A DNA stretch of 64,000 bases, from the NCBI RefSeq assembly GCF_004010195.1, contig NC_057755.1, positions 12,084,966 to 12,148,965 of the forward strand, in the 5' to 3' direction. A program made the position numbers and the translations under genes. Of this stretch, positions 8,916 through 62,448 are shown one piece after another. Each line of letters opens with the position of its first letter. Positions within the stretch are counted from its first letter, which is position 1. The notes beneath the pieces are model-generated. The model was not told the origin of the DNA and ran no database searches. It saw only the letters and a list, made by a program, of their open reading frames with translations. The stretch is from Chiloscyllium plagiosum (Eukaryota).

Positions 8916-9580
8916 GGAGCACAGTACACAGTCCTTCTGTCTGTAGAATGTTGTGTAAACAGTCCGTCTAACTGTAGGATACGGTGTAGCACAATATATG
9001 AGCCCTGTGACTGTACAATATGATGTAGCACAGTACACAATCCCAGTGACTGTACAAGATGGTGTAACTCAGTACACATTCCCTTCCACTATACAATATG
9101 ATACACATGGTCTATAAGTCTTCTAACTGTAGAAGATGGTGTAGCACAATACACAGTCCTGGGAACTGCAGGATAGCACAGTACACAAAGCCTGTAACTG
9201 TAGGATGTGGTGGAGCACAGTACAGAGTCATATAACTGCAAGACATAGTGTAGTCCCTGTAACTGTAGGATATGCTGTAGCATAGTACAAAGATTTTCCA
9301 TGTGTAGTATATGGTGCAGCACAGTATACAGTCCCATAGCTGTGGGCTACAGTGTATCACAGTATACAACCCATATAACTACAGAATATGATGTAGTACA
9401 GCACAAAGTCCCTGTAACTGTAGGATATAGTGTCACGCAACACATGGTCCCTATAACTGCTGGATATAGCATAGTTCAGCATACAATCTCTGTGACTGTA
9501 TGATATGGTGCAGGACAGTACACAATCCCTGTAACTGTAGGATACAGTATAGCACATTATGCTATCCTTCTAACTGAAGG
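8915..9580. repeat. Degenerate minisatellite, ~37-39 bp unit
   Basis: Repeated tagcacagtacacagtccctgtaactgtaggatatggtg-like units. Confidence 0.85.
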
Positions 9581-9676
9581 CAGGAATGTGAATTTCAGTT
9601 ATGATCTTCTTTAGTGGTGGAGCACGCTCAAGAGTCCAGATGGCTTAGACCTGCTCCCTGCTTGTATGTTCGTATG

Positions 9677-9726
9677 TATAACACAGTACACAGATCCTAA
9701 CTATAGGATCTGTGTACTGTGTTATA
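9677..9726. repeat. Perfect 23-bp inverted repeat with 4-nt loop
   Basis: tataacacagtacacagatccta-acta-taggatctgtgtactgtgttata. Confidence 0.95.
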
Positions 9727-10044
9727 GTTTAATGGTAGGCTATGATGTAGCATAGTACGTGGTCACTGTTTCTGTGGCATTTAGTGTAACATTGCAATTT
9801 CCAAACAATACTGCATGACTACACTTCCTTTCACTGTTACCCACATGACCATATTGAGTGATAGATATCATTTGTTCAATTTCCTGACTCAGATAAGAAT
9901 AGAAAGAACATTTAGCCACATCCTGATAAAGCCTATTAAGTCTGCAGTCTATTCTTAAATCAAGTATTTTATTTGACTCTTTTCCATGCTTTGCTGTCCC
10001 TTTCCCATTGTCCTTACCATATTGTTCAAATGCAGGTCCAGTGG

Positions 10045-15998: not shown

Positions 15999-16030
15999 AA
16001 ATAAATCTGTTGGATTATAACTTCCTGTTG

Positions 16031-16147
16031 AAAATGTGTTGCTGGAAAAGCGCAGCAGGTCAGGCAGCATCCAAGGAGCAGGAGAATCGATGCTTCGGGC
16101 ATGAGCCCTTCTTCAGGACTCCAGCATCTGCAGTCCTCACTTTCTCC
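16031..16147. mobile_element. Penelope family A fragment nested in family B pLTR
   Basis: Family A sequence with internal inversion; TSD tataactt(c/a)ctgttg at 16016-16030 and 16148-16162. Confidence 0.8.
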
Positions 16148-16802
16148 TATAACTTACTGTTGTGTGATTTTTAATTTTGTACACCCCAATCCAACACTGG
16201 CTTCTCCAAATCAAGACATTAAAACAACATAGTCAAGCTGATAGAGCGAGTAGACACGTGCTGCATTAAATTTACTGCAGAGAAACGTGAAGTAATTACT
16301 TTTTGTCAGAAGAATGTGGAGCCCAGTAGCCCAGAAATTCCTGTTTTCAATCTCAATTGGATTAAAAAATTATTCACTTATCTTGAGACAGTTTCTATTC
16401 CAGAGCTGCCTGGATGAGGGCCTTCTCTTGTGCATTTGTCCATGAAACCAGCAGTGGAGAAATCTACATAGAAACTACATCACCTTTTACAGCACTGAGT
16501 GCTGCTTTCTGATGATTAAATATCTAAGACACTATGAAAGACTGAGTGAAGGGCTGAGGTGAGAGGGGAGTTAGGGGATGGTTATGGACCAGGCCAAACC
16601 CCTTCAAAATCTTTCAAGAAAGAAGACTGGACTTTAACTTTCCTATTTGTTTTAAGCAGGTGTATGGTGGATATTCCAGGAGTGATGCAGTTGGCCCAGC
16701 CACTTAGTTTTAAACAAATCAGAATTTATTTATAAATGGCGTCATTTTAATTTAATTTCAATGTGTTATGATCAGTGTATATGATTGTCTCAGATACAGA
16801 TA

Positions 16803-17130
16803 GGGGTGGCACGGTGGCTCAATGATTAGCACTGCTGCCTCACAACACCTGGGACCCGGGTTCAATTCCCGCCTCGGGCAACTGTCAGTGTGGAGTTTGC
16901 ACATTCTCCCCGTGTCTGCGTGGGTTTCCTCTGGGTGCTCCAGTTTCCTCCCGCAGTCCAAAGATGTGCAAGTCAGGTGAATTGGCCATGCTAAAATTGC
17001 CTGTAATACTAGGTGCATTAATCAGGGGTAAATGTAGAGGAGTAGGACTGGGTAGATTGCTCTTCGAAGGGTCGGTGTGGACTTGTTGGGCTGAAGGGCC
17101 TGTTTCCCCACTGTAGGGAATCCAAAAAAA
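16803..17130 (+). mobile_element. HE1-type SINE at the Gmr1 RNase H/3'LTR junction
   Basis: Full head-core-tail. Confidence 0.9.
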
Positions 17131-17834
17131 AAGATTACAGATAACATAAACATTGAAATATTGTAATGCCAACATCAAGCTCAAAGTTTCCTTCTCCACT
17201 GTCAAATATTTCTGCAGATGGATGTTCAGTTTCCTGGAAAAATACCTGATAGGTCTTTCTATCTTCTCGTCGTCCTTCTGTAAGAGCACAGAACCGACAC
17301 CCACATCACTTGCATCGATAGCCATCTTGAATGGCTTTGAGTAATTAGGTGTGGCTAATACTGGGGCAGTCATTAACACAGTTTTCAGGCTGTCAAATGC
17401 CTTCTGACAGCCCACTGTCCACTGAAACTTCTTACCTTTCTTTAGCAATTCAATGAATGGAGCAGCCACACTGCTAAAATGTAGTACAAATTTTCAATAA
17501 AATCCATTCAGTGGCAGGAATCATACTACTGCTCTCTGTGTCGATGGTTTAGGAAATTTCCCGATTACCTTTGTTTCTGCATCCCATGGGGCCATTTGTC
17601 CATATCCAATAACATGGCCCAGGAAAGTGACTTGGACCTTGGCAAATTCACTTTAGTCAGGTTTATCATCAAGCCTGCCTTCCGAAGTTGATTGAACAAT
17701 TCTGATAAATGTTGCAAATGTTCCTTCCATGTGTGACTAAAAATCACCAGGTCATCAATGTAAGCTACACAACTAGGTAATCCGAAAATAACCTAATTGA
17801 TTAGTCTCTGAAATGTGGCTGGCACATTTTTCAT

Positions 17835-18038
17835 GGAGAAAGTGAGGTCTGCAGATGCTGGAGATCAAAGTTGAAACTTTATTGCTGGAAGCAGGTCAGG
17901 CAGCATCCAGGGAACAGGAGATTCGACGTTTCGGGCACAGGCCCTTCTTCCTGGCTTGTGAAGGGCCCGAAACGTCAAATCTCCTGTTCCCTGGATGCTG
18001 CCTGACCTGCTGTGCTGTTCCAGCAATAAAGTTTCAAC
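17835..18038. mobile_element. Penelope family A fold-back mini-insertion in Gmr1 RT
   Basis: Arms gttgaaactttattgctggaa / ttccagcaataaagtttcaac; 16-bp TSD ctggcacatttttcat at 17819-17834 and 18039-18054. Confidence 0.9.
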
Positions 18039-18136
18039 CTGGCACATTTTTCATACCAAACAGCATGACTTTAAACTGATACAGCCTATTTAGCGTTACA
18101 GAAGTCGCTCTTTCAGACAAAGTTACATGCCAGTAT

Positions 18137-18251
18137 TGAAAAGTGTGGTGCTAGAAAAGCACAGCATCCTCGGATGCCTGACCTGCTGTGCTTTCCCAGC
18201 ACCACACTTTTGGACTCTGCTCTCCAGCATCTGCAGTCCCTACTTGCTCTC
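18137..18251. mobile_element. Penelope family A short fold-back insertion in Gmr1 RT
   Basis: aaaagtgtggtgctagaaaagcacagca / tgctgtgctttcccagcaccacactttt plus family A terminus. Confidence 0.75.
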
Positions 18252-20115
18252 AGTACCTGCTAGTATCCTCTGAGCAAGTCCAACTTAGAAATATAAGTTG
18301 CTTTTTCTACCTTGTCAACATGGCCTTTCAAACATGGAATCAGAAATGCATCAGCCTTTGTGACTGCATTGACTTTGCAATAGACCACACTTAACTGTTG
18401 GGTACCATCTAGTTTTGGCACCATTACAATGGGTGAGCTCCAGTCACTGTAACTCACTTCGATTCAGTTGTCTTGGAACTTTCAATCTCCTTTTGAACCA
18501 ATGCTATCTTTAAAAGGTTATGCCTATAAGAATGTTGCTTAATCAGAACAGCATCTCCTATACCTACATCATCCATAATTAGGTGAGTACTTCCCAGCTT
18601 ATTTCCATTTGTCTCCCCATGTGATAGTAATACTCTTTTCAGGTCATTTCAATTTTCCTCTGGAAGGTAACTCAATAATTTATCCCAGTTTTTGACAGCT
18701 TCCTCATGGTCCAATTTAATTTGAGGAATGTCCAATTCAGAATCCTCTGAACTTAGTTCTTCACTCTGTGTTGTAACCAGTAACATAGTCTCCTTGGCTT
18801 TCCTTCACCATCACAATACCTTTTGAGCATATTCACATGACATGTGAGATTTCTTCCAGACTGGAGTCCTTATCAAATAGTTGACTTCACTCAATTTCCT
18901 TTCAACTTGAAAACGTCCACTAAACTTTTCTTTGAAAGGTTCACCTATCACTGGAAGTAATACCTTATCACCAATAGGAAAATTGTGAATTTTCGATTTA
19001 TTGTCTGCTTTCTGTTTCATTGTATGCTGTGATACTTTTAAATGCTGTCTATCCAATTCCCCCACTCTATTTAATCGTTCCCGAAAATTTGACACATAGT
19101 CCAAATATGTGGCCTCTGAATTATGACTTACCATTTCTCCTTAATCAACTTTATTGGTCCTGTCACTTCATGTCCAAAAACAAATTCAAATGCACTGAAT
19201 TTGGTTGATTCATTTGGTGCATCCCTGATCACATAAAGTACAACTGGAATTCCCTTATCCTAATCATCTGGATAGTTTTGACTATCATCCCTCAATATGG
19301 TCTTTAGTGTCTGATGCCATCTTTATAGTGCTCCTTGTGACTCTGGTTGCTACGCAGTAGATTTGAATTGTTTTATTCCTAAGCTGTCCATAACTTCCTT
19401 GAATCATGATGTGAAATTTGACTCTTGATCTGATTGTATCTCTGCGGGTGGTCTGTATCTTGTGAAAGATTTGAGTAACTTGTACAATCCTTTTAGCTGT
19501 GATATTCCTAATAGAATGGCCTCTTGAATTCTAGTGGACACATCCATTATTCTTAACAAATACTGATTCCCTTTTTTTTTGTTTTAGATACTGGTCCTAC
19601 AAAAATCAATTAACACTCTTGTAAAATGTTTCTCAAATGCAGGAATGGGGATTAAAGTTGCACGTTTGATTACTGCCTGTGGGTTTCCAATTACCTGACA
19701 TGAATGACAAGTCTGGCAAAATTCAATTACATCCTTGTGCAGTTCAGGCCAAAAAAAATGTCTTTGCATTTTAGCTTGAGTTTTTCTCACCCTTAAGTGA
19801 CCGTAAATGGTAGTTCATGCGTCACTTGTAACATCTCCTTCCTATAACCCACTGACGATATGACTTGATGAACGTCTGCCCATTTCTCATCTGCCCGAAT
19901 ATGTGATGGTCTCCATTTCCTCATTAAGACATCATTTTCAAGATAGCAGCAATCATGGAGACATTAAGATTCTTTTTCCGTGTATGCTTTTTATCCAATC
20001 ACTTTAAATTTTCATCTTTCTGCTGGAACTCAGTTAATTTATCTGAGCTAAAGATGTCTGCTGTATCATCTATCTGCTCCTGGTTTGTCGAAGGAATTGA
20101 CTGTAGTTGATCATC

Positions 20116-21663
20116 ATGGGCTCTAAAATTAGTAAAGACAAGTCACCAGGTAATGGTAACGATACGGGAAGGATCCCTGATAACATTCCTCCAGAAAGTC
20201 CATTGGGACGGATGTTGAAAAACTGGAAAGATAGTATTTATACTTGAACTAAGGACAAAAGGATTATGATAAAGTATTGCTTTTTGTATGGACTAAGGAA
20301 AGTATAAGACTCCCCTCAGTTTTTTGGCCAAACTATGGGTCAGATGAAGATTTGGACCTGCCAACTCCTCAATATCTATGTCAATGAAAAACAACCCTTT
20401 AGTCAGGAGGAGTCAGACTGCACCTCTTGATGGAAGGGCAGTCAGGACACGCAGGTGTTTCCTGTAGAAACTAAATAATGTCCCTGAGGTGGGACCCCCT
20501 CAGCCCCCCCTTTCCCACCCTCTTGGGACATTCTTGACAACTTACCCCCGCCTTATGACCCCCCCCGGAATCAACCCCCACAGGAAGACCCACAAAATGA
20601 TCAGGGACAAGGGGGACTACTTGGTGCCATGGGGGGTGTGGAAGAAGACACGGGGGAGAGGGAAGGGGAAAAGAAGGGGTCACGGGGTTCAGTGACATGG
20701 GGACAGTCTCAGCAAATGTCTGTACAAGTCTGTCTGCTTAGGGAAGTTCCGATAGGGGCGGGGGATATTGGGTTAGTGAGGGCATTTCAGAAAGAGATGA
20801 AATCCCTTATAGAGGATCCGGTGGGACGACCAGAACAGGTAGACCAATTTTTAGGACCCAGTCTGTATACTTGGACTTAGTTAATGGCCATCCTGAACAT
20901 TCTCTTTACTGGTGAGGAAAGAGGATTAATAAGGCGAGCTGCCTTAAGGTCTTGGGAATGCGAGAATCCCCCAGGTGGTGAGGCACCAGCAGCGGAGCAA
21001 AAATTCCCTCATGTTGATCCACAATGGGACAACAATAATGCAGAAGATCGTAACCGAATGAAAGATCTTAAAATCCTTATTATTAAGGGCATTAGAGAGG
21101 CAGTCCCGAAATCACAAAACCTATCGAAAGTATTTGAGAAAGATGAGACCTTCTTGGCCTTTTCACAGAGACTTCGAGATTCAATGAGAAAATACTCAGG
21201 GATGAATCCTGAGGACCCAATAGCGCAGGGCCTCCTAAAGTACACTTTGTGACTAAGGCATGGCCAGACATCCAGAAAAAAATTCAGAAAATAGATGGGT
21301 GGAGTGAGAAATCACTTGATGAATTGTTAAGAGAGGCACAGAAAGTGTTTGTGAAGAGAGAGGATGAGAAGCAAAAACAGGAGGCAAAAATGATGGTAGC
21401 CACGGTTGATGAAGTAGTCAAGAAAAGAATCGAACTGGTTGACTAGCAACTGGAGTGGAGGGTGGCAGCACGTAGAACATAGAGGAAGGGGTAGAAGACG
21501 AGGAGGACTTCTCATAGGTTCCAGTCGACAAGGACAAGGATAGAGGTGGGGACCCCAAAAAGCAGGGTGTTACCATTGTGGAAGGAAAGGGCACTTTAAA
21601 CGGGAGTGTCCTGAAATACAAAGGGAAGAAAAAACCATCCTGCTCATGAACTTTGATGAAGAC
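20116..21663 (+). pseudogene. gag: ERV gag (stops and frameshifts)
   Basis: MGSKISK myristoylation-type start; IPPESPLGRMLKNW; FWPNYGSDED; capsid (DQFLGPSLYTW, KFPHVDPQWD, QNLSKVFE); single CCHC knuckle CYHCGRKGHFKREC at 21568-21609. Confidence 0.9.
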
Positions 21664-21930
21664 GAGGGGTATCAGTGGTTCCTGACCCCAGGGACCCACT
21701 GGGAACCCTTGATAAATGTAGAGGTGGGCCCTTATAGAGAGGATGTAGTTTTCCTAATAGACATGGGGGCAGCGAGGTCATCCTTAAATTTTATACCCAG
21801 AAGTGTACAATTTACAGATCAGAAAATAATGGTTTCCGGAGTGAAGGGAGAAGGATTTACTGTCCTTGTATTTGAACCAATAACAGTTGAAAATAATGAA
21901 AGAAGAGTTGAAGGACAATTCTTATATATT

Positions 21931-21971
21931 AGAGGAAAGTGAGGACTTCAGATGCTGGAGATCTTATATGG
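21931..21971. mobile_element. 41-bp Penelope family A terminal insertion in ERV protease
   Basis: gaaagtgaggacttcagatgctggagatc; TSD aattcttatatatt at 21917-21930 and 21972-21985. Confidence 0.85.
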
Positions 21972-23475
21972 AATTCTTATATATTCCAGACATAGGGAGC
22001 AACTTGTCAGGAAGGGATTTAATCACACTTTTAGGACTAGGAATTGGAGTGTGCGACCGAAAAATAGTAATAAGAATGGCCATTTTGACCGAGGAACAGG
22101 AGGAACAAATAAACCCCACAGTATGGGCATGTGAAGGCAATTGAGGGCGATTACATATTCTCCCTCTAGAAATTAGCTTGAAAAAGGTGGGGGAGACGGT
22201 ATGCGAAAGACAATACCCCATCTCGACCCAGGGACGAAGGGGGTTACAACCTACGATTGAGAGGTTAATTAAGGACGGTCTGTTGGAACCCTGTATGTCC
22301 CCTTATAATACCCCTATTTTGCCAGTAACAAAAATCAGACAGTACCTATTGGTTGGTACAAGACTTGAGAACGCTTAACCGGATAGTACAGACTCATCAC
22401 CCTGTTGTTCCCAATCCTTATACCCTTTTGAGTAAGATTCAACATGACCGCAAGTGGTTCAGTGTGGTGGATCTAAAAGTCGCTTTTTTGGCATGTCCAC
22501 TGTCAGAAGGAAGTAGAAACATCTGCCTTTGAACAGGCAGATCCAAAAACGGGGCGAAAACAGCAGTATAGATGGACTGAGCTTCCACAGGGGTTCACGG
22601 AATCTCCAAACTTGTTTGGCCAGGTTTTAGAGCAAATTTTGGAAAAGTTTGTAAGTCCCCAAGGCACGACTTTACTGCAATATGTGGATGACCTATTGGT
22701 CATGGGAGAAAATGAGAGGGGAACCACAGAAGCAACTAACTAATTGCTAAACTTTCTGGGACAACAGGGATTGAGGGTCTCAAGGAATAAATTACAATAT
22801 GTAGAGAGAGAAGTGAAATATTTCGGACACTTGGTCAGTGAAGGGAAAAGGAAAATAAGCCCTGAAAGGATTGAAGGAATATTGGGAATGCCATTTCCTT
22901 GGACTAAGCGAGAATTAAGGAAATTCCTGGGGCTTACGGGGTATTGTAGGTTATGGATTGATTCGTACGCCCAAAAAACAAGGAAATTATACTTGAAATT
23001 GTTAGAGGAAGAACTGCAGTTGTTAAAGTGGACAGATGGAGAAAAGGAGTTAGTAGAAGAGTTGAAAAGAAGTTCATGCCCCTGTCCTTGCATTACCTTC
23101 CCTGGACAAACCCTTTCACTTGTTTGCCACCATGGATAAGGGAGCGGCCCTAGGGGTCCTAACCAGCGATGGGGGGTGATGAAACAACCGGTAGCATACT
23201 TGTCTAAATTGTTAGATCCAGTCTCCAGAGGGTGGCCAGAGTGAATGCAGGCAGTAGCAGCGACTGCGCTATTTGTGGAGGAAAGTCGGAAACTCACATT
23301 CGGGGGGGCCTTGATAGTAAGCACCCCGCATCAAGTACGGACTATAATGAACCAGAAGGCAGGGCGGTGGCTTACGGACTCTAGAATTCTAAAATACGAA
23401 GCAATTCTAATTGAGAGGGATGACCTTACATTGATCACAGACACTTGTCTGAATCCAGCTACCTTTCTCTGGAGA

Positions 23476-23884
23476 AAGTTAAAAATCACACAACACAAGG
23501 TTATAGTCAAACAGGTTTAATTGGAAGCACTAGCTAATTGATTGTCTGTTAAGCCTTTCATCTGTTAGAATATAGTGATAGTTTCACTTCTTTCATGTGT
23601 AAATCACAAAACCCTTTTTTTTAAAGTTGCATTCTCGGGTTAGCTGTTAACAATGGTGATAGCTAGACAATATGTTGAATTTTTCAATGTATAATTTCAG
23701 TTACATCACACTGCAAACTTTTGCTATAAATTCTGTGTTACGATCGAGCCCTCCACAATCACCTAATGAAGGAGCGTCGCTCCAAAAGCTAGTGTGCTTC
23801 CAATTAAACCTGTTGGACTATAACCTGGTGTTGTGTGATTTTTAACTTTGTACACCCCAGTCCAACACCGGCATCTCCAAATCA
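23476..23884. mobile_element. Penelope family B short insertion in ERV pol
   Basis: Inverted terminal segments (aaagttaaaaatcacaca / tgtgtgatttttaacttt); degenerate hammerhead ~23763-23792; TSD tttctctggaga at 23464-23475 and 23885-23896. Confidence 0.9.
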
Positions 23885-25068
23885 TTTCTCTGGAGAGGGG
23901 AGAATGAAGCTCCCTCAGACCCAGAATATGATTGACTCGACATTATAGAATATCAGACTAAAGTAAGAATGGACCTTAGAGATATCCCTCTACATGAAGG
24001 GGCTAGGCTGTTCATTGACGGGTCCTCCAGAGTGATTGAAGGTAAAAGTTACAATGGATATGCGGTAGTGGATGGAATAAAAGGGAGTGTTATTGAAGCT
24101 AATAGACTACCCAATGATTGGTCGGCATAGACTTGCGAACTTTATGCACGAGGAAGGGTCCTTAAGACCTTGGAAGGCAAAGAAGGAACTGTATCCCCAG
24201 ATTCTAAGTATGCCTTCGGGGTGGCACACACATTTGGGAAGATATGGCAGGAGAGGGGACTGATAAACAGTAGGGGTAAAGAACTGGCTCATGAGGAATT
24301 GGTAAAGCAAGTAATAGAATCCCTTTTGTTGCCAAGGGAAATAGCAATAGTCCACATAAATGGACATCAGCAGGGAAATGATCCCGAAGCAAAGGGAAAT
24401 AGATTGGCGGATGAAGTCGCTAAGGAGGCAGCTCTGAACCCTCAACCCACTACAATATATATTTTGGTACCGATGGTACAGGAACCTGGGGGGAGACCGA
24501 TATTTAGCGCTAAGGAAGAGAGAGAGTTAGAAGAACTGGGAGCTACGCAGACAGTAGAGATGCTACCTGATGGCCGGGAGATGCTAAGATAATGATGTGA
24601 GAAATTATGGCTGTCTTACACCAGGGGAGTCACTGGGGAGTGCAAGCAATGTGTGATTTGGTCTTAAGGAAATATGGATGCAAAGGGATCTATACGATAG
24701 CTCAACAGATATGTGAGGGATGTATAACATGCAAGAAAATCAACAAAAAGGTATTGAGGAAACAAGTCCCAGGAGGGGGAGAACCTGGGCTCCGACCATT
24801 TCAGAGCATTCAGGTAGATTATACTGAATTACCCCGAGTGGGAAGACTGAGGTATATGCTGGTAATGGTTGATCACCTATCTGGATGGGTGGAGACGTAT
24901 CCTTTAGCTACTGCCACTGCAATTGAGGTGTCCAAGATAATACTTGAACACATAATCCCCAGATACAGGATTGTGGAATGCATAGATTCAGATCAGGGAA
25001 CTCATTTCACTTTCAGGGTACTCCTGGGAGTCCCACATCCCTTGGCACCCACCTTCATCAGGAAAGGT

Positions 25069-25119
25069 GTTCCTTGGATGCTGCCTGACCTGCTGCGCAT
25101 TTCCAGCAACACATTTTCA
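25069..25119 (+). mobile_element. 51-bp Penelope family A insertion in ERV integrase
   Basis: Family A sequence; 24-bp TSD gcacccaccttcatcaggaaaggt at 25045-25068 and 25120-25143. Confidence 0.88.
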
Positions 25120-25700
25120 GCACCCACCTTCATCAGGAAAGGTTGAGAGAATGAACCAGACACTCAAGAAGCAGTTATCGAAATTAGTAATAGAAACCAG
25201 ACTCCCTTGGACTAAGTGTTTACCTATAGCCCTTTTGCGAGTGCGGACAGCCCCAAGGAAAGATATGGGGCTGTCCCCTTATGAGATATTGTTTATTCTG
25301 CCCTATCTAGGAATGAAAGGGGAACTGCCAACCCTGGAGACTAAAGATCTGTTCTTAAAAAAGTATATACTGGATTTGTCCTCATCTTTGTCTTTTCTTG
25401 GGAAACAGGGATTACTGGCATAGACTCCGCCCCTTGAATTCGCCATCCATCCCATCCAGCCGAGAGATTGGGTCCTAATTAAGTCATGGACAGAAACTAA
25501 ATTGCAACCGGATTGGGAGGGACCGTACCAGGCTCTTTTGACTCCTGAAACTGCGATACACACGGTGGAGAAAGGCTGGACTCACTACACCAGGATTAAA
25601 GGACCGATGGACTCCCCGATTAAGAAAGAAGCCTGGACGGCCGAATCGACGGGAGAACCACTGAAACTCAGACTCAAAAGACATTAAGTAACTAATTTTT

Positions 25701-26465
25701 ATGCGGACGCAGAATAGTTTCTTTTTGATATCTATATATTGTATTGCATGTTAAATCTCTCAGTCCTTCAATGATATTATAGGATGCTGGAATGTATGAT
25801 AGCCCTGTACCAGGATAACACTGCATGGAATGATAGGAATTGTACATCCCTATCTCTAATGTTCTCTCCCTTGTAGAAGACAGATTTGAAAGTTCCTCCC
25901 CCCCATTTTTGACCACAGTCGGGAATCACACATTGTGTATAAGCTAACAAGGTACAAATCGGTCTAGAGACTTGGGGGAGCTGAGTATAGATACTCAGAA
26001 TGGCACCGAAATGGACAAAGGAGGGAATTACTCAGCACTCCGGGGTCACCGGGTGGATCTCTGGTGGTACTGTGGAGGCAGAATATTGCGACCTACCCTA
26101 CCTCCTGACTGGAGAGGGATATGTGCAATTGTGCAATTGGCAATCCCATTCACCTTGGCATTTGAGAAGGAGAAGGTGGTAGTAACAAAGAATGAGAGGA
26201 GTAAAAGGTCGTTATTAGATCCTTCCTTTGATGATAGGATTTTTCTCGACTCTATAGGAGTTCCTAGAGGAGTCCCAGATGAGTTCAAGGCCCGCAACCA
26301 GATTGCAGCAGGTTTTGAATCGGCCCAATTTTAGTGGGTAACGGTCAACAAGAATGTGGACTGGATAAACTATATTTTTTACAACCAGCAAAGATTCATC
26401 AATTACACTAGAGATGCGGTCAAGGGTATTTCCGAGTAACTTGATGCAACCAGCAGAATGGCCTG
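25701..26465 (+). pseudogene. env: ERV env (SU shortened, TM with stops, runs into gap)
   Basis: DLWWYCGG..LPPDWRGICAIVQLAIPF; furin site RSKR 26197-26208; IGVPRGVPDEFKARNQIAAGFES..WVTVNKNVDWINYIFYNQQRFINYTRDAVKGI, resembling EnvP(b)1/HERV-IP-type TM. Confidence 0.9.
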
Positions 26466-26876
26466 NNNNNNNNNNNNNNNNNNNNNNNNNNNNNNNNNNN
26501 NNNNNNNNNNNNNNNNNNNNNNNNNNNNNNNNNNNNNNNNNNNNNNNNNNNNNNNNNNNNNNNNNNNNNNNNNNNNNNNNNNNNNNNNNNNNNNNNNNNN
26601 NNNNNNNNNNNNNNNNNNNNNNNNNNNNNNNNNNNNNNNNNNNNNNNNNNNNNNNNNNNNNNNNNNNNNNNNNNNNNNNNNNNNNNNNNNNNNNNNNNNN
26701 NNNNNNNNNNNNNNNNNNNNNNNNNNNNNNNNNNNNNNNNNNNNNNNNNNNNNNNNNNNNNNNNNNNNNNNNNNNNNNNNNNNNNNNNNNNNNNNNNNNN
26801 NNNNNNNNNNNNNNNNNNNNNNNNNNNNNNNNNNNNNNNNNNNNNNNNNNNNNNNNNNNNNNNNNNNNNNNNNNNN

Positions 26877-27400
26877 TAGGCTGCGCATGCAAATACTAAA
26901 CAGTGAGAAGCGAAAACAGGTAGAATTATCTCTGACTAATAGGGCAGAGTGACCGTGTAGCGGGATGTACCAGTAACAGGAGAATAGTGTGTCAGTTGCA
27001 GGAGGGATGTGGCCAACGGATGGAAATTAGTTTGGCAGGATGATCGCATGAAGACAGCAAACTATGCCAGGATAGTCACATATAAGGAATGAGATAAATA
27101 AGAGTAAGGGACGACAGGCTTGGAGTAATGGGAGAAGTAAACAGAGGCGGAGAGAAGCTAGACAAAGGTGAGGTGAAGCTAGAGCTTGTGAAGGCTACGT
27201 GATACAGCAAAAGTAACCAATGGAGTGAAAGGGGAGGACCGAGAGACACAGCTGAACAGCATAAATCAGAATGTAGCCCTCAGATCAGGGGGGGCTTACT
27301 CGTTAGGCACCCGTTCTTGCAAGTACATATCAATAAAATTCACTGCTTCAGAATTTGTCTCGGACTGGAATTTATTAATATGTGAGTTTTGTTTCTCACA
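26877..27400 (+). repeat. ERV 3' LTR (5' part lost in gap)
   Basis: TATA-like cataaat ~27260, AATAAA 27332-27337, terminal ...tctcaca, after which Gmr1 protease sequence resumes. Confidence 0.8.
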
Positions 27401-28458
27401 CGTTACCAGTACCTTTCCTGGCAATAGTCCTTCAGAGGTACATATCTCCTCATCTTTCAACATCAAAGGTTAAGAGGATCCTATATCTCTTTACCTACTG
27501 TTCCTGGCCTATGTGAGTAAACTTTACCTTTGCATGTATATGGTTTAAGAAGATCTGGCACTTCTTCCTTAACCAACCTCCAACCAGGTTGTACATTCTG
27601 GTGCAGCTTTCTAACATCCATGTTACTTTCCGTTACAACTCCAAAAAGATTCATGACCTTAGCCCATTTTCCTACATCTGGCTTCCCAGTGCTTTTCCTA
27701 ACTCACAAAATTGTTGTTTCATGTGGCCCACTTTATTGCAGTGAAAACACCAGAGATTTTTAACTTTTCTTTCCCCTCAAGGGTTTCCTTTTGACTCTGT
27801 AGTAAGTTCTCCTTATGATCTTCACTGAGATCTACCATTCCCTTTCCACAAGAGGATTTCTCTTTTCCCCAATTTCAATCCATCGTGGATTGAAATTGAT
27901 TTTGGAAGCCAACCTTTGATTTATGGACCAACTCAGGCATTTCAGCTGCTAAAATCATTGTTTTAACTCTCTGCTCTTCCACATAAGATCTCATTACTTC
28001 AGTAAGTGAATTTTGAACTCCTATCTAAGTCGCAAATTCTTAAGTTTAAACTCTCTTTTTTTTCCTTCCCTCCCTCTCCTTTTCTCTCTGTCTTCTCTCT
28101 CTCTTTCCTCTGCTTTTAATCGTAATTCAAACCATTTCATTTCTTTTGCCATTGCCACTAGTTTAAGTTGCTTCATTTTCAGAAAATTTAAATGCTGAGC
28201 TATTGCTGTAATTATCTCTCCCTTCCTTCCGGAAGGAGGCAGCAACTTCCAGCAGCTTGGCCTTATTCACCTTTGCCAAGGCCCCCGAAGTCACTTCTTC
28301 CACCGCCCAGAAAACTCTTGCTGACTGAAACAGTGATTGCTATCCCAAGCACTGTTTAAACCAACCAAATTAAACACCCAGAACAAAAGACAATAATTCC
28401 TACCACTCACTGCCTTCGAGTCGAGCAATCCTAATCCCAAATTAGAACTAGAAAACAA

Positions 28459-28477
28459 ATCCCGCAAAGAGTCCCCA
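28459..28477 (-). promoter_or_regulatory. Degenerate tRNA-Pro primer-binding site of the Gmr1-like element
   Basis: tggggactctttgcgggat vs canonical tgggggctcgtccgggat, 3 nt from the LTR end ...acaaca. Confidence 0.6.
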
Positions 28478-28515
28478 GTCTGTTGTGGCCCAGGCCAGAG
28501 CCCCTCAAAAAGTAG

Positions 28516-44329: not shown

Positions 44330-44880
44330 TTGTGATCCTTTTGTGCTGTATGTATTCATGCAATCTGGTTTATGCTGCTTGTTTAGCAATGAGTGATCTA
44401 ATATGATCTAAAATGTATTATGTATATGTATATGAGTGCATTTATGCATAATCTGATATATGTTGTCCCTTAACGTATGAGTGTATATATGTGTGATCTA
44501 GTATGTGCTGTGTATACATGAGTGTGTATATGTGCAATCCAGTGTGTGTTATGTATACATATGTGGCTGTATGTATCTGTGATCTCATATGTGTTGTGTG
44601 TATATTTTTGTGAATGAGCATATGTATGACTCAGTATTGTGTATGTGATCTTGTATGTGCTGTGTGTACAACTGCATGTGCATTTGTTATCCAGCTTTTG
44701 CTTTTTATACATATGTCAGCATGTATATGTGATCCATTCTGCACTATGTATAAGTTTTTGAGCATGTATATGTGTGATTTGGTATGTAACGTGAATAGAT
44801 AATTGTGTGCATATATATGAAATCTAGAGTGTGGTATGTATCTGGATGGACATGAATGATTCAAGATGTGTTGTGTTTAT
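44330..44880. repeat. Degenerate TG/TA-rich minisatellite
   Basis: Recurrent atatgtgtgatct..tatgtg.tgtgt units. Confidence 0.7.
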
Positions 44881-62234: not shown

Positions 62235-62448
62235 NNNNNNNNNNNNNNNNNNNNNNNNNNNNNNNNNNNNNNNNNNNNNNNNNNNNNNNNNNNNNNNNNN
62301 NNNNNNNNNNNNNNNNNNNNNNNNNNNNNNNNNNNNNNNNNNNNNNNNNNNNNNNNNNNNNNNNNNNNNNNNNNNNNNNNNNNNNNNNNNNNNNNNNNNN
62401 NNNNNNNNNNNNNNNNNNNNNNNNNNNNNNNNNNNNNNNNNNNNNNNN

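What the first reader, a model, noticed from the sequence alone, without database searches (positions are those of the whole stretch)
20090..27400. Near-complete HERV-I/EnvP(b)1-like endogenous retrovirus in a cartilaginous-fish genome
Seen: gag (MGxxxS start, single CCHC), PR, RT (YVDD), RNase H, IN with GPY, env with furin site and TM, and a 3'LTR. Knowledge: the TM string IGVPRGVPDEFKARNQIAAGFES...NKNVDWINYIFYNQQRF and the gag N-terminus resemble the HERV-I/HERV-IP group including human EnvP(b)1; HERV-I-related pol fragments are known from sharks. Inference: a provirus with all genes and an LTR may represent an uncharacterised lineage useful for testing deep codivergence versus cross-class transmission.
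Basis: partly seen in the sequence, partly recalled or inferred. Interest (0 to 1): 0.72.

Follow-up and report, generated by a model that had tools for sequence, protein, structure and literature searches.

The report
Decayed shark provirus related to EnvP(b)1
This is a broken, truncated retrovirus fossil in what is likely a shark genome; its envelope gene groups with bird viruses and the primate gene EnvP(b)1 rather than with bony-fish viruses, likely the trace of an old jump from land vertebrates into sharks.

Summary
A real provirus lies at 20116-27400 (gag, pro, pol, env, one LTR), but it is not near-complete. There is no 5' LTR or leader, about 240 residues of Env (receptor-binding domain, CxxC) are absent, all genes are broken, and half of TM is an N run. 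It sits inside a Gypsy-type element.

Env trees put it among shark Envs, sister to bird Envs (100/98), next to primate EnvP(b)1. Teleost and most amphibian Envs fall outside, and amniote monophyly is rejected (AU p=0.0005; 0.002 with a mixture model). RT falls in a bird/squamate/shark/ray clade on the gamma-like side; joining epsilon-like viruses is rejected (p=7e-6), but RT does not resolve shark versus sauropsid order (p=0.34). No HERV-I/IP Pol was on hand, so that membership rests on Env.

Relatives occur in four shark genera and in rays. A lemon-shark fragment and gamma-related Chiloscyllium ERVs are already in print. What my searches did not find in print is the link to EnvP(b)1 and the bird-shark sister grouping. 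The scan had not noted it on other DNA.

Verdict: new member of a known kind; the family is more interesting than this locus.

The parts
16888..20095 (-). 3' part of a decayed Gypsy-type LTR retrotransposon with integrase upstream of RT and RNase H (Gmr1-like order; the name is recalled); abuts the provirus on the left; right edge approximate
   Evidence: Integrase_H2C2 E 1.2e-13 (19587-19814), RVT_1 E 4.9e-9 (17568-17792), RT_RNaseH_2 E 3.3e-29 (16888-17493); rve E 1.7e-6
20116..21660 (+). gag, broken by stops and frame changes; MGSKIS start, capsid, single CCHC knuckle near 21565-21615; same frame as pro at the junction
   Evidence: 34-35% identical to a finch Gag-Pol relative
21661..22080 (+). 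protease region, active-site motif degenerate, interrupted by a short repeat insert; limits approximate
21930..21972 (.). short dispersed-repeat insert with a 14-nt flanking direct repeat
22081..23460 (+). reverse transcriptase and connection, YVDD at 22681-22692; several frame changes and stops
   Evidence: RVT_1 E 4.2e-11; best solved-structure hits are p80 RT/RNase H chains, E 6e-36; 72% to best relatives
23476..23885 (.). about 410-nt dispersed-repeat insert with a 12-nt flanking direct repeat
23886..24590 (+). end of connection and RNase H
   Evidence: RNase_H E 1.1e-11; 2 in-frame stops
24601..25687 (+). integrase with zinc finger, core and GPY-type C-terminal domain; interrupted by a short insert near 25070-25120 with a 24-nt direct repeat
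   Evidence: Integrase_H2C2, rve, MLVIN_C
25700..26465 (+). env remnant: perhaps the start of a signal peptide, then SU C-terminal part, furin site RSKR 26197-26208 and N-terminal half of TM; receptor-binding domain and CxxC absent
26466..26876 (.). run of 411 N covering the rest of TM, PPT and LTR start
26877..27400 (+). single (3') LTR-like stretch: CCAAT 27217, TATA-like ATAAAT 27261, AATAAA 27332, ends in CA
   Evidence: LTR status inferred from position and motifs, no second copy seen
27401..28480 (-). 5' part of what is likely the same Gypsy-type element (gag-like stretch, weak zinc knuckle, protease-like motif cut by the LTR end); far edge approximate
   Evidence: translation; zf-CCHC E 0.058 only; protease motif recalled

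Best explanation
It is a dead class I (gamma-like) provirus whose envelope belongs to the EnvP(b)1 clade, one decayed copy of a virus family found in several sharks that likely descends from a virus of land vertebrates which crossed into elasmobranchs and likely spread there by reinfection. Shown: gene order and motifs, lesions, missing 5' end and receptor-binding region, tree positions. Inferred history of the locus: (1) the virus integrated into the protease gene of an older Gypsy-type element; (2) a deletion later removed the 5' LTR and leader with adjacent host-element DNA, and another removed most of SU; (3) three repeats inserted into pro and pol, and stops and frameshifts accumulated. 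The locus would now make no viral protein; the remaining LTR could at most act as a promoter or polyadenylation site (untested). The ancestor would have worked like a simple gammaretrovirus: Gag and Pol in one frame and a furin-cleaved, disulfide-linked Env with an EnvP(b)1-type receptor-binding domain.
For: Env trees: shark + bird clade 100/98 and 99/95 under LG+C20, primates next, then a marsupial, with teleosts and amphibians outside. The tree with birds, primates and marsupial held together is rejected: AU p=0.00048 and 0.0023. SU C-terminal identity of shark P0004: sharks 65%, birds 62%, primates 51%, teleosts 37%, amphibians 35% (medians). P0030 is an EnvP(b)1-type protein (6W5Y, E 7e-93). 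A shark+bird Env profile hits 6W5Y at E 1.4e-13, and the predicted N-terminal domain of P0004 has 6W5Y as top fold match (Foldseek E 1e-5; VIA Z 8.4, rmsd 2.9, 115 aligned, rank 1 of 48,161). RT: in a 100/100 clade of birds, squamates, sharks and rays whose outer relatives are a gecko, turtle, lizard, other birds and mammals; union with epsilon-like rows rejected, p=7e-6. No teleost is among the named members of that RT clade. Multi-copy in sharks: Env clusters of 12, 33, 22 and 6 members, several 626-660 aa long. The stretch is held at shares 0.28-0.49 by 14 of 24 listed runs, 2 organism codes, 5 studies, one of which may be the source.
Against: RT does not reject sauropsid monophyly with elasmobranchs outside (p=0.34), and the branching inside that clade is weak. 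No HERV-I, HERV-IP or ChiRV1 Pol was available, so Pol is tied to that group only by its avian neighbours and by literature. The Env root is a set of fish and frog Envs of the same broad type, not an independent outgroup, and the grouping was tested after a first tree had been seen. No reptile Env was among the 120 listed hits. A caecilian Env (P0060) fell inside the shark group on a long branch and is closer to it (45%) than to teleost or frog Envs (31-33%); I left it out. Env and Pol recombine: two swallow Pols of the same RT group carry a different Env (about 22%). The query covers only 44-45% of tree columns. The structure model is poor overall (mean pLDDT 40), usable only around residues 28-165, and is of a relative, not of this locus. 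The three nearest Pol rows besides Scyliorhinus have unknown hosts.
Confidence: 0.72

Rival explanations
1. Deep codivergence: the lineage has been inherited with jawed vertebrates since sharks and bony vertebrates split, and was lost or not sampled in teleosts and most amphibians.
For: Present in three shark orders by Env and in skates and stingrays by Pol; shark Envs form one clade (95/88); RT does not reject sauropsid monophyly.
Against: Env rejects amniote monophyly. Shark-bird identity (62% SU-C, 82% TM) nearly equals shark-shark identity (65%, 86%). Inside sharks Scyliorhinus joins Heterodontus, not Mustelus, against host relationships (recalled). The elephant shark screen found only epsilon-like and snakehead-like lineages (Han 2015).
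Confidence: 0.1
2. Transfer the other way or in several directions: an aquatic reservoir (sharks, amphibians) gave rise separately to the bird, primate and marsupial viruses, or the Env moved by recombination independently of Pol.
For: The outer relatives of the Env clade are fish and frog Envs; a caecilian Env may belong inside; Env swapping is seen in the hits and reported by Chen et al..
Against: Needs three water-to-land jumps against one land-to-water jump on the Env tree; the outer relatives of the RT clade are almost all amniote viruses.
Confidence: 0.15
3. Contamination or mis-assembly that placed a bird or mammal provirus in a fish assembly.
For: Close bird relatives; an N run inside env; abrupt left junction.
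Against: Closest named relatives are sharks in both genes; the provirus carries inserts of repeats found in its own flanks; the stretch is held by runs of several studies.
Confidence: 0.03

Closest known systems
EnvP(b)1 / ERVPB1 (HERV-P(b); clusters with HERVIP Env, supergroup HERVIPADP, Vargiu 2016 PMC4724089; McCarthy 2020 PMC7683403)
   Same: Env remnant 55-56% identical to primate EnvP(b) proteins; same supported Env clade; shark relatives have CxxC, CX6CC and an N-terminal domain whose best sequence and fold match is the EnvP(b)1 RBD
   Different: EnvP(b)1 is an intact, conserved primate gene; this env is broken and lacks that domain. Bird Envs are closer to it than EnvP(b)1 is. McCarthy et al. 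report no related sequences in avian or piscine genomes (human nucleotide query).
Avian HERV-I-like elements / ChiRV1 / avigamma1 (Jern 2005 PMC1224870; Bolisetty 2012 PMC3482500)
   Same: Single zinc knuckle, same-frame gag-pro, GPY integrase tail; RT in a clade with many bird ERVs; galliform, anseriform and gull Envs are the sister group
   Different: Host class; ChiRV1 itself was not available to compare; many passerine Pols of the RT clade carry another Env
Lemon shark retroviral sequence (as described in Han 2015, PMC4422223; original 1997-98 papers recalled, not read)
   Same: Shark ERV related to human ERVs, already read as cross-species transfer
   Different: A single sequence, recalled as a short pol fragment; not compared here
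ERV-GA.a-Cpu and ERV-GA.a-Ara (Chen et al., bioRxiv 10.1101/2021.11.23.469661)
   Same: Gamma-related class I ERVs with gamma-type Env named for cartilaginous fish; 46 orthologous ERV groups reported in Chiloscyllium, the genus of the best Env hits
   Different: Sequences are in supplements I could not see, so identity with this family is open; the terms EnvP and HERV do not occur in the main text
Epsilonretroviruses (WEHV-1) and CmiERV lineages
   Same: Class I, fish hosts, same-frame gag-pol
   Different: RT grouping rejected; one knuckle rather than two (Jern 2005)

Membership tests
Class I gamma-like ERV | RT groups with gamma-like rather than epsilon-, beta- or spuma-like viruses | tested here: met
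   only one outgroup row (WEHV-1) is a named epsilonretrovirus, other group labels are mine
Class I gamma-like ERV | single NC zinc knuckle | tested here: met
   one zf-CCHC hit; three-frame reading shows no second
Class I gamma-like ERV | gag and pro in one frame | tested here: met
   knuckle and protease start lie in one stop-free stretch 21544-21942; decay could mask the original state
Class I gamma-like ERV | GPY/F motif in integrase tail | tested here: met
   WEGPY, MLVIN_C E 4.8e-8
Class I gamma-like ERV | gamma-type Env with CxxC in SU and CX6CC in TM | tested here: inconclusive
   CxxC region absent and CX6CC region is N in this locus; both present in 9 of 9 relatives checked
EnvP(b)1 / HERVIP Env clade | Env groups with EnvP(b)1 apart from other gamma-type Envs | tested here: met
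   98/95 clade, 87/86 under the mixture model; HERVIP Env itself not in the trees
EnvP(b)1 / HERVIP Env clade | EnvP(b)1-type receptor-binding domain | tested here: inconclusive
   absent from this locus; met in relative P0004 by sequence and predicted fold
HERV-I / HERV-IP group | Pol groups with HERV-I/HERV-IP Pol | not testable with these tools
   no named HERV-I/IP or mammalian in-clade Pol among the hits
HERV-I / HERV-IP group | primer-binding site tRNA and LTR type | not testable with these tools
   5' end missing; no repeat library on hand
Epsilonretrovirus-like | RT groups with WEHV-like viruses | tested here: not met
   AU p=7e-6
ERV-GA.a-Cpu | high identity to the published lineage sequence | not testable with these tools
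   preprint supplements closed; journal version not held
Intact provirus | two LTRs, PBS, four open genes | tested here: not met

The most novel reading that the evidence does not exclude
Sharks carry a multi-copy retrovirus family, some copies with full-length Env frames, whose Env is sister to a bird lineage and is the closest non-amniote kin of the primate fusogen EnvP(b)1, receptor-binding fold included. It records a land-to-sea jump from a sauropsid-type virus into elasmobranchs, followed by long circulation across shark orders, and this link has not been described.
Probability: 0.5. Interest if true: 0.62.

Novelty: new member of a known kind. Interest (0 to 1): 0.42.

Why it matters
Whether gamma-like retroviruses crossed between land vertebrates and cartilaginous fish has rested on one lemon-shark sequence, and a broad survey called the gamma-containing clade exclusive to amniotes (Xu 2018, PMC6001957). 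The family seen here gives genome-scale material in several sharks and rays and ties it to EnvP(b)1, whose relatives were reported absent from bird and fish genomes. That makes direction and timing of the transfer testable by phylogeny and orthology, and gives natural variants of the EnvP(b)1 receptor-binding domain for comparison. This particular locus is a poor witness: one LTR, no receptor-binding domain, every gene broken.

Tried and rejected
No own genome is held, so copy number, solo LTRs and LTR-pair dating could not be done. Read-level checks of the junctions, the env deletion and expression were not obtained and stay open. No RNA holder listed; this is no evidence on expression, and the six rows with shares under 0.2 were not used. 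Viral contigs held no relative of P0127 or of the flanking element. The metagenome scan gave 1 locus of 77 pattern matches (L001, 52% Pol identity) with an unrelated Env of about 23%, so the host and Env of the nearest unnamed Pols remain unknown. The env remnant alone had no meaningful hit among solved structures or Pfam. A search aimed at short protease-RT fragments named no HERV-I-group record among the 120 listed of 1896. No tRNA gene in the window; no Rfam match in 16000-23400; no atlas hit for the flanking gag-like stretch. The gag stop count (9) is inflated by off-frame stretches and was not used. Earlier scan notes: 0 windows by sequence; one unrelated primate note by words. Literature searches listed no paper tying shark ERVs to EnvP(b)1; most subscription papers are not in the library. 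Rejected: the TM string as a group marker; an accessory or unusually short Env as a novel design, since full-length relatives show a plain deletion.
Full report
OBSERVATION. The + strand carries gag (ATG 20116), pro, pol (stop 25687), env and an LTR-like stretch ending at 27400. Pfam confirms Gag_p30, one zf-CCHC, RVT_1, RNase_H, Integrase_H2C2, rve and MLVIN_C in that order (12 of 22 pieces sent had a hit, 9 of them proviral). The protease has no Pfam hit but is 54-63% identical to the matching part of a natural relative. YVDD, WEGPY, RSKR and the quoted TM string are present. Three inserts with exact 14-, 12- and 24-nt flanking repeats match dispersed repeats of the window; I did not test whether they are Penelope elements.

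The element is not near-complete. The LTR has no second copy in the window, and another element reaches to about 25 nt before the gag ATG. Env homology begins 93 nt after the pol stop, at about residue 242 of the 626-aa relative P0004, so the receptor-binding domain and CxxC are absent. A run of 411 N hides the rest of TM. Aligned stretches show about 12 in-frame stops in roughly 1450 codons of pol and env (5, 2 and 3, some possibly off-frame, plus 2) and several frame changes. As a rough inference this is some 5-7% neutral decay; it gives no date without a host rate and a second LTR.

SURROUNDINGS. Both flanks are minus-strand pieces of a Gypsy-type element. On the right lie a gag-like stretch, a weak knuckle (E 0.058) and a protease-like motif (recalled) cut by the LTR end. 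On the left lie integrase, RT and RNase H in that order. Integrase before RT is the Gmr1-like arrangement (recalled). The simplest history is integration into the protease gene, then a deletion of the 5' LTR, leader and some host-element DNA (inferred).

ENV RELATIVES. The remnant, read with X at stops, found 189 proteins among 776 candidates, 120 listed. Of the ten best, nine are named sharks (Chiloscyllium, Mustelus, Heterodontus, Scyliorhinus; 63-83%). Then come eight named birds (59-65%), a bilby (56%) and three primates (55-56%); teleosts and amphibians at near-full coverage reach about 45-51%. The macaque hit P0030 matches the EnvP(b)1 RBD structure 6W5Y at E 7e-93. With natural P0004 as query, TM barely separates primates (72%) from teleosts and amphibians (70%), but the SU C-terminal part does (sharks 65, birds 62, primates 51, teleosts 37, amphibians 35).

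ENV TREES. I built three: 69 of the 120 hits plus the query (quick), 36 (LG+G4) and 23 (LG+C20). Rows left out were redundant, unnamed or long-branched, among them caecilian P0060, which had fallen inside the shark group, and two distant shark Envs. All three give fish/frog Envs outside (marsupial, primates, (birds, sharks with the query)). Support for birds + sharks is 88, 100/98 and 99/95. Holding amniotes together is rejected (AU p=0.00048 and 0.0023). That split is what host codivergence predicts under any root; the test was run after a first tree had been seen. A profile of 14 shark, bird and one unnamed Env finds 6W5Y first (E 1.4e-13). The predicted model of P0004 is poor overall (pLDDT 40), but its N-terminal domain (mostly 45-75) has 6W5Y as top match in both searches.

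POL RELATIVES AND TREES. The RT piece is 72% identical to a Scyliorhinus protein and 69-72% to four unnamed ones, about 62% to snakes and mostly 52-64% to birds (126 of 788 candidates, 120 listed). It is closest to p80-type RT structures (E 6e-36; Pr125Pol chains 6e-13). A wider search supplied outgroups, and 20 of its and one search's rows were looked up for names, which identified WEHV-1 Pol. In trees of 119, 44 and 40 rows the query lies in a 100/100 clade of birds, squamates, sharks and rays, on the gamma-like side of the epsilon-like rows (100/98). Inside the clade the order is weak, and sauropsid monophyly is not rejected (p=0.34). No HERV-I/IP Pol turned up, so that membership is untested for Pol and Gag. 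Two swallow Pols of the same RT group carry a different Env, and a stickleback epsilon-like Pol carries a related one at 46%; Env and Pol histories need not agree.

REALITY OF THE LOCUS. No own genome is held. The IN-env stretch is held at shares 0.28-0.49 by 14 of 24 listed runs, under two organism codes and five studies, one of which may be the source. Together with the host-repeat inserts this argues against contamination. Junctions and expression were not checked at read level. That the host is a shark, probably near bamboo sharks, is inferred from the best hits, not shown.

MECHANISM. Shown: anatomy, lesions, tree positions. Inferred: a simple gamma-like virus with same-frame Gag-Pol and an EnvP(b)1-type Env entered elasmobranchs from land vertebrates, spread by reinfection (many env-bearing copies in several sharks), and left this copy, now dead. 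I put the identity as a decayed class I provirus with an EnvP(b)1-clade Env at about 0.9 and the land-to-sea reading at about 0.7.

WHAT IS KNOWN. Han 2015 (PMC4422223; part 1 of 2 of the text) cites a lemon-shark ERV related to human ERVs as cross-transmission and found only epsilon- and snakehead-like lineages in elephant shark. Xu 2018 (PMC6001957; passages) calls the gamma-containing clade exclusive to amniotes and finds frequent host switches. Chen et al. (bioRxiv 10.1101/2021.11.23.469661; parts 2-3 of 6 and passages) report gamma-related lineages ERV-GA.a-Cpu and ERV-GA.a-Ara and 46 orthologous groups in Chiloscyllium; their supplements, which I could not see, may hold this family. [quoted passage not shown] Vargiu 2016 (PMC4724089; passages) place ERVPB1 Env with HERVIP and note similarity to ChiRv1. 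Jern 2005 (PMC1224870; passages) gives the structural markers and mentions avian HERV-I-like elements as probable horizontal transfers. Bolisetty 2012, PMC11089739, PMC4133949, PMC10699275, PMC10741562 and PMC8556966 were seen as passages; the last three added nothing. The 1997-98 PCR surveys are recalled only. Searches listed no paper linking shark ERVs to EnvP(b)1; the library lacks most subscription journals.

VERDICT. New member of a known kind. The locus is a damaged copy. The family's bird-shark sister relation and its tie to EnvP(b)1 are the part worth following, and they can be studied without this locus. Interest 0.42.

Noticed in passing
window 16888-20095 and 27401-28480 (-): The provirus is nested in a Gypsy-type element with integrase upstream of RT (Gmr1-like order, name recalled). 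Only about 50 codons remain between its protease-like motif and its integrase start, which suggests that host-element DNA was lost with the 5' LTR; the expected length is recalled, not measured.
   Followed up: partly
P0004, P0020, P0010, P0021 clusters: Shark gene sets hold many annotated Env models of this clade, several 626-660 aa long and on different large contigs, so the family is multi-copy and some env frames are full length.
   Followed up: partly
P0060 (Rhinatrema): A caecilian Env is closer to the shark/bird clade (42-50%) than to teleost or frog Envs (31-33%); possibly a further cross-class member.
   Followed up: partly
P0127 and P0016 clusters: Members of the nearest unnamed Pol cluster and of a galliform Env cluster share the same longest-contig length (5081). 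This may be chance, or a hint that the nearest Pols are bird viruses; untested.
   Followed up: no
P0025 (Macrotis): A bilby Env of 481 aa belongs to the EnvP(b)1 clade as its deepest branch.
   Followed up: no
P0102, P0115: A second, very distant gamma-type Env lineage is shared by Scyliorhinus and Mustelus (long branch).
   Followed up: no
window 8917-9796 and 44433-44853: Degenerate tandem arrays with units of about 39 and 45 nt.
   Followed up: no
window 62235-62448: A second N run of 214 nt.
   Followed up: no
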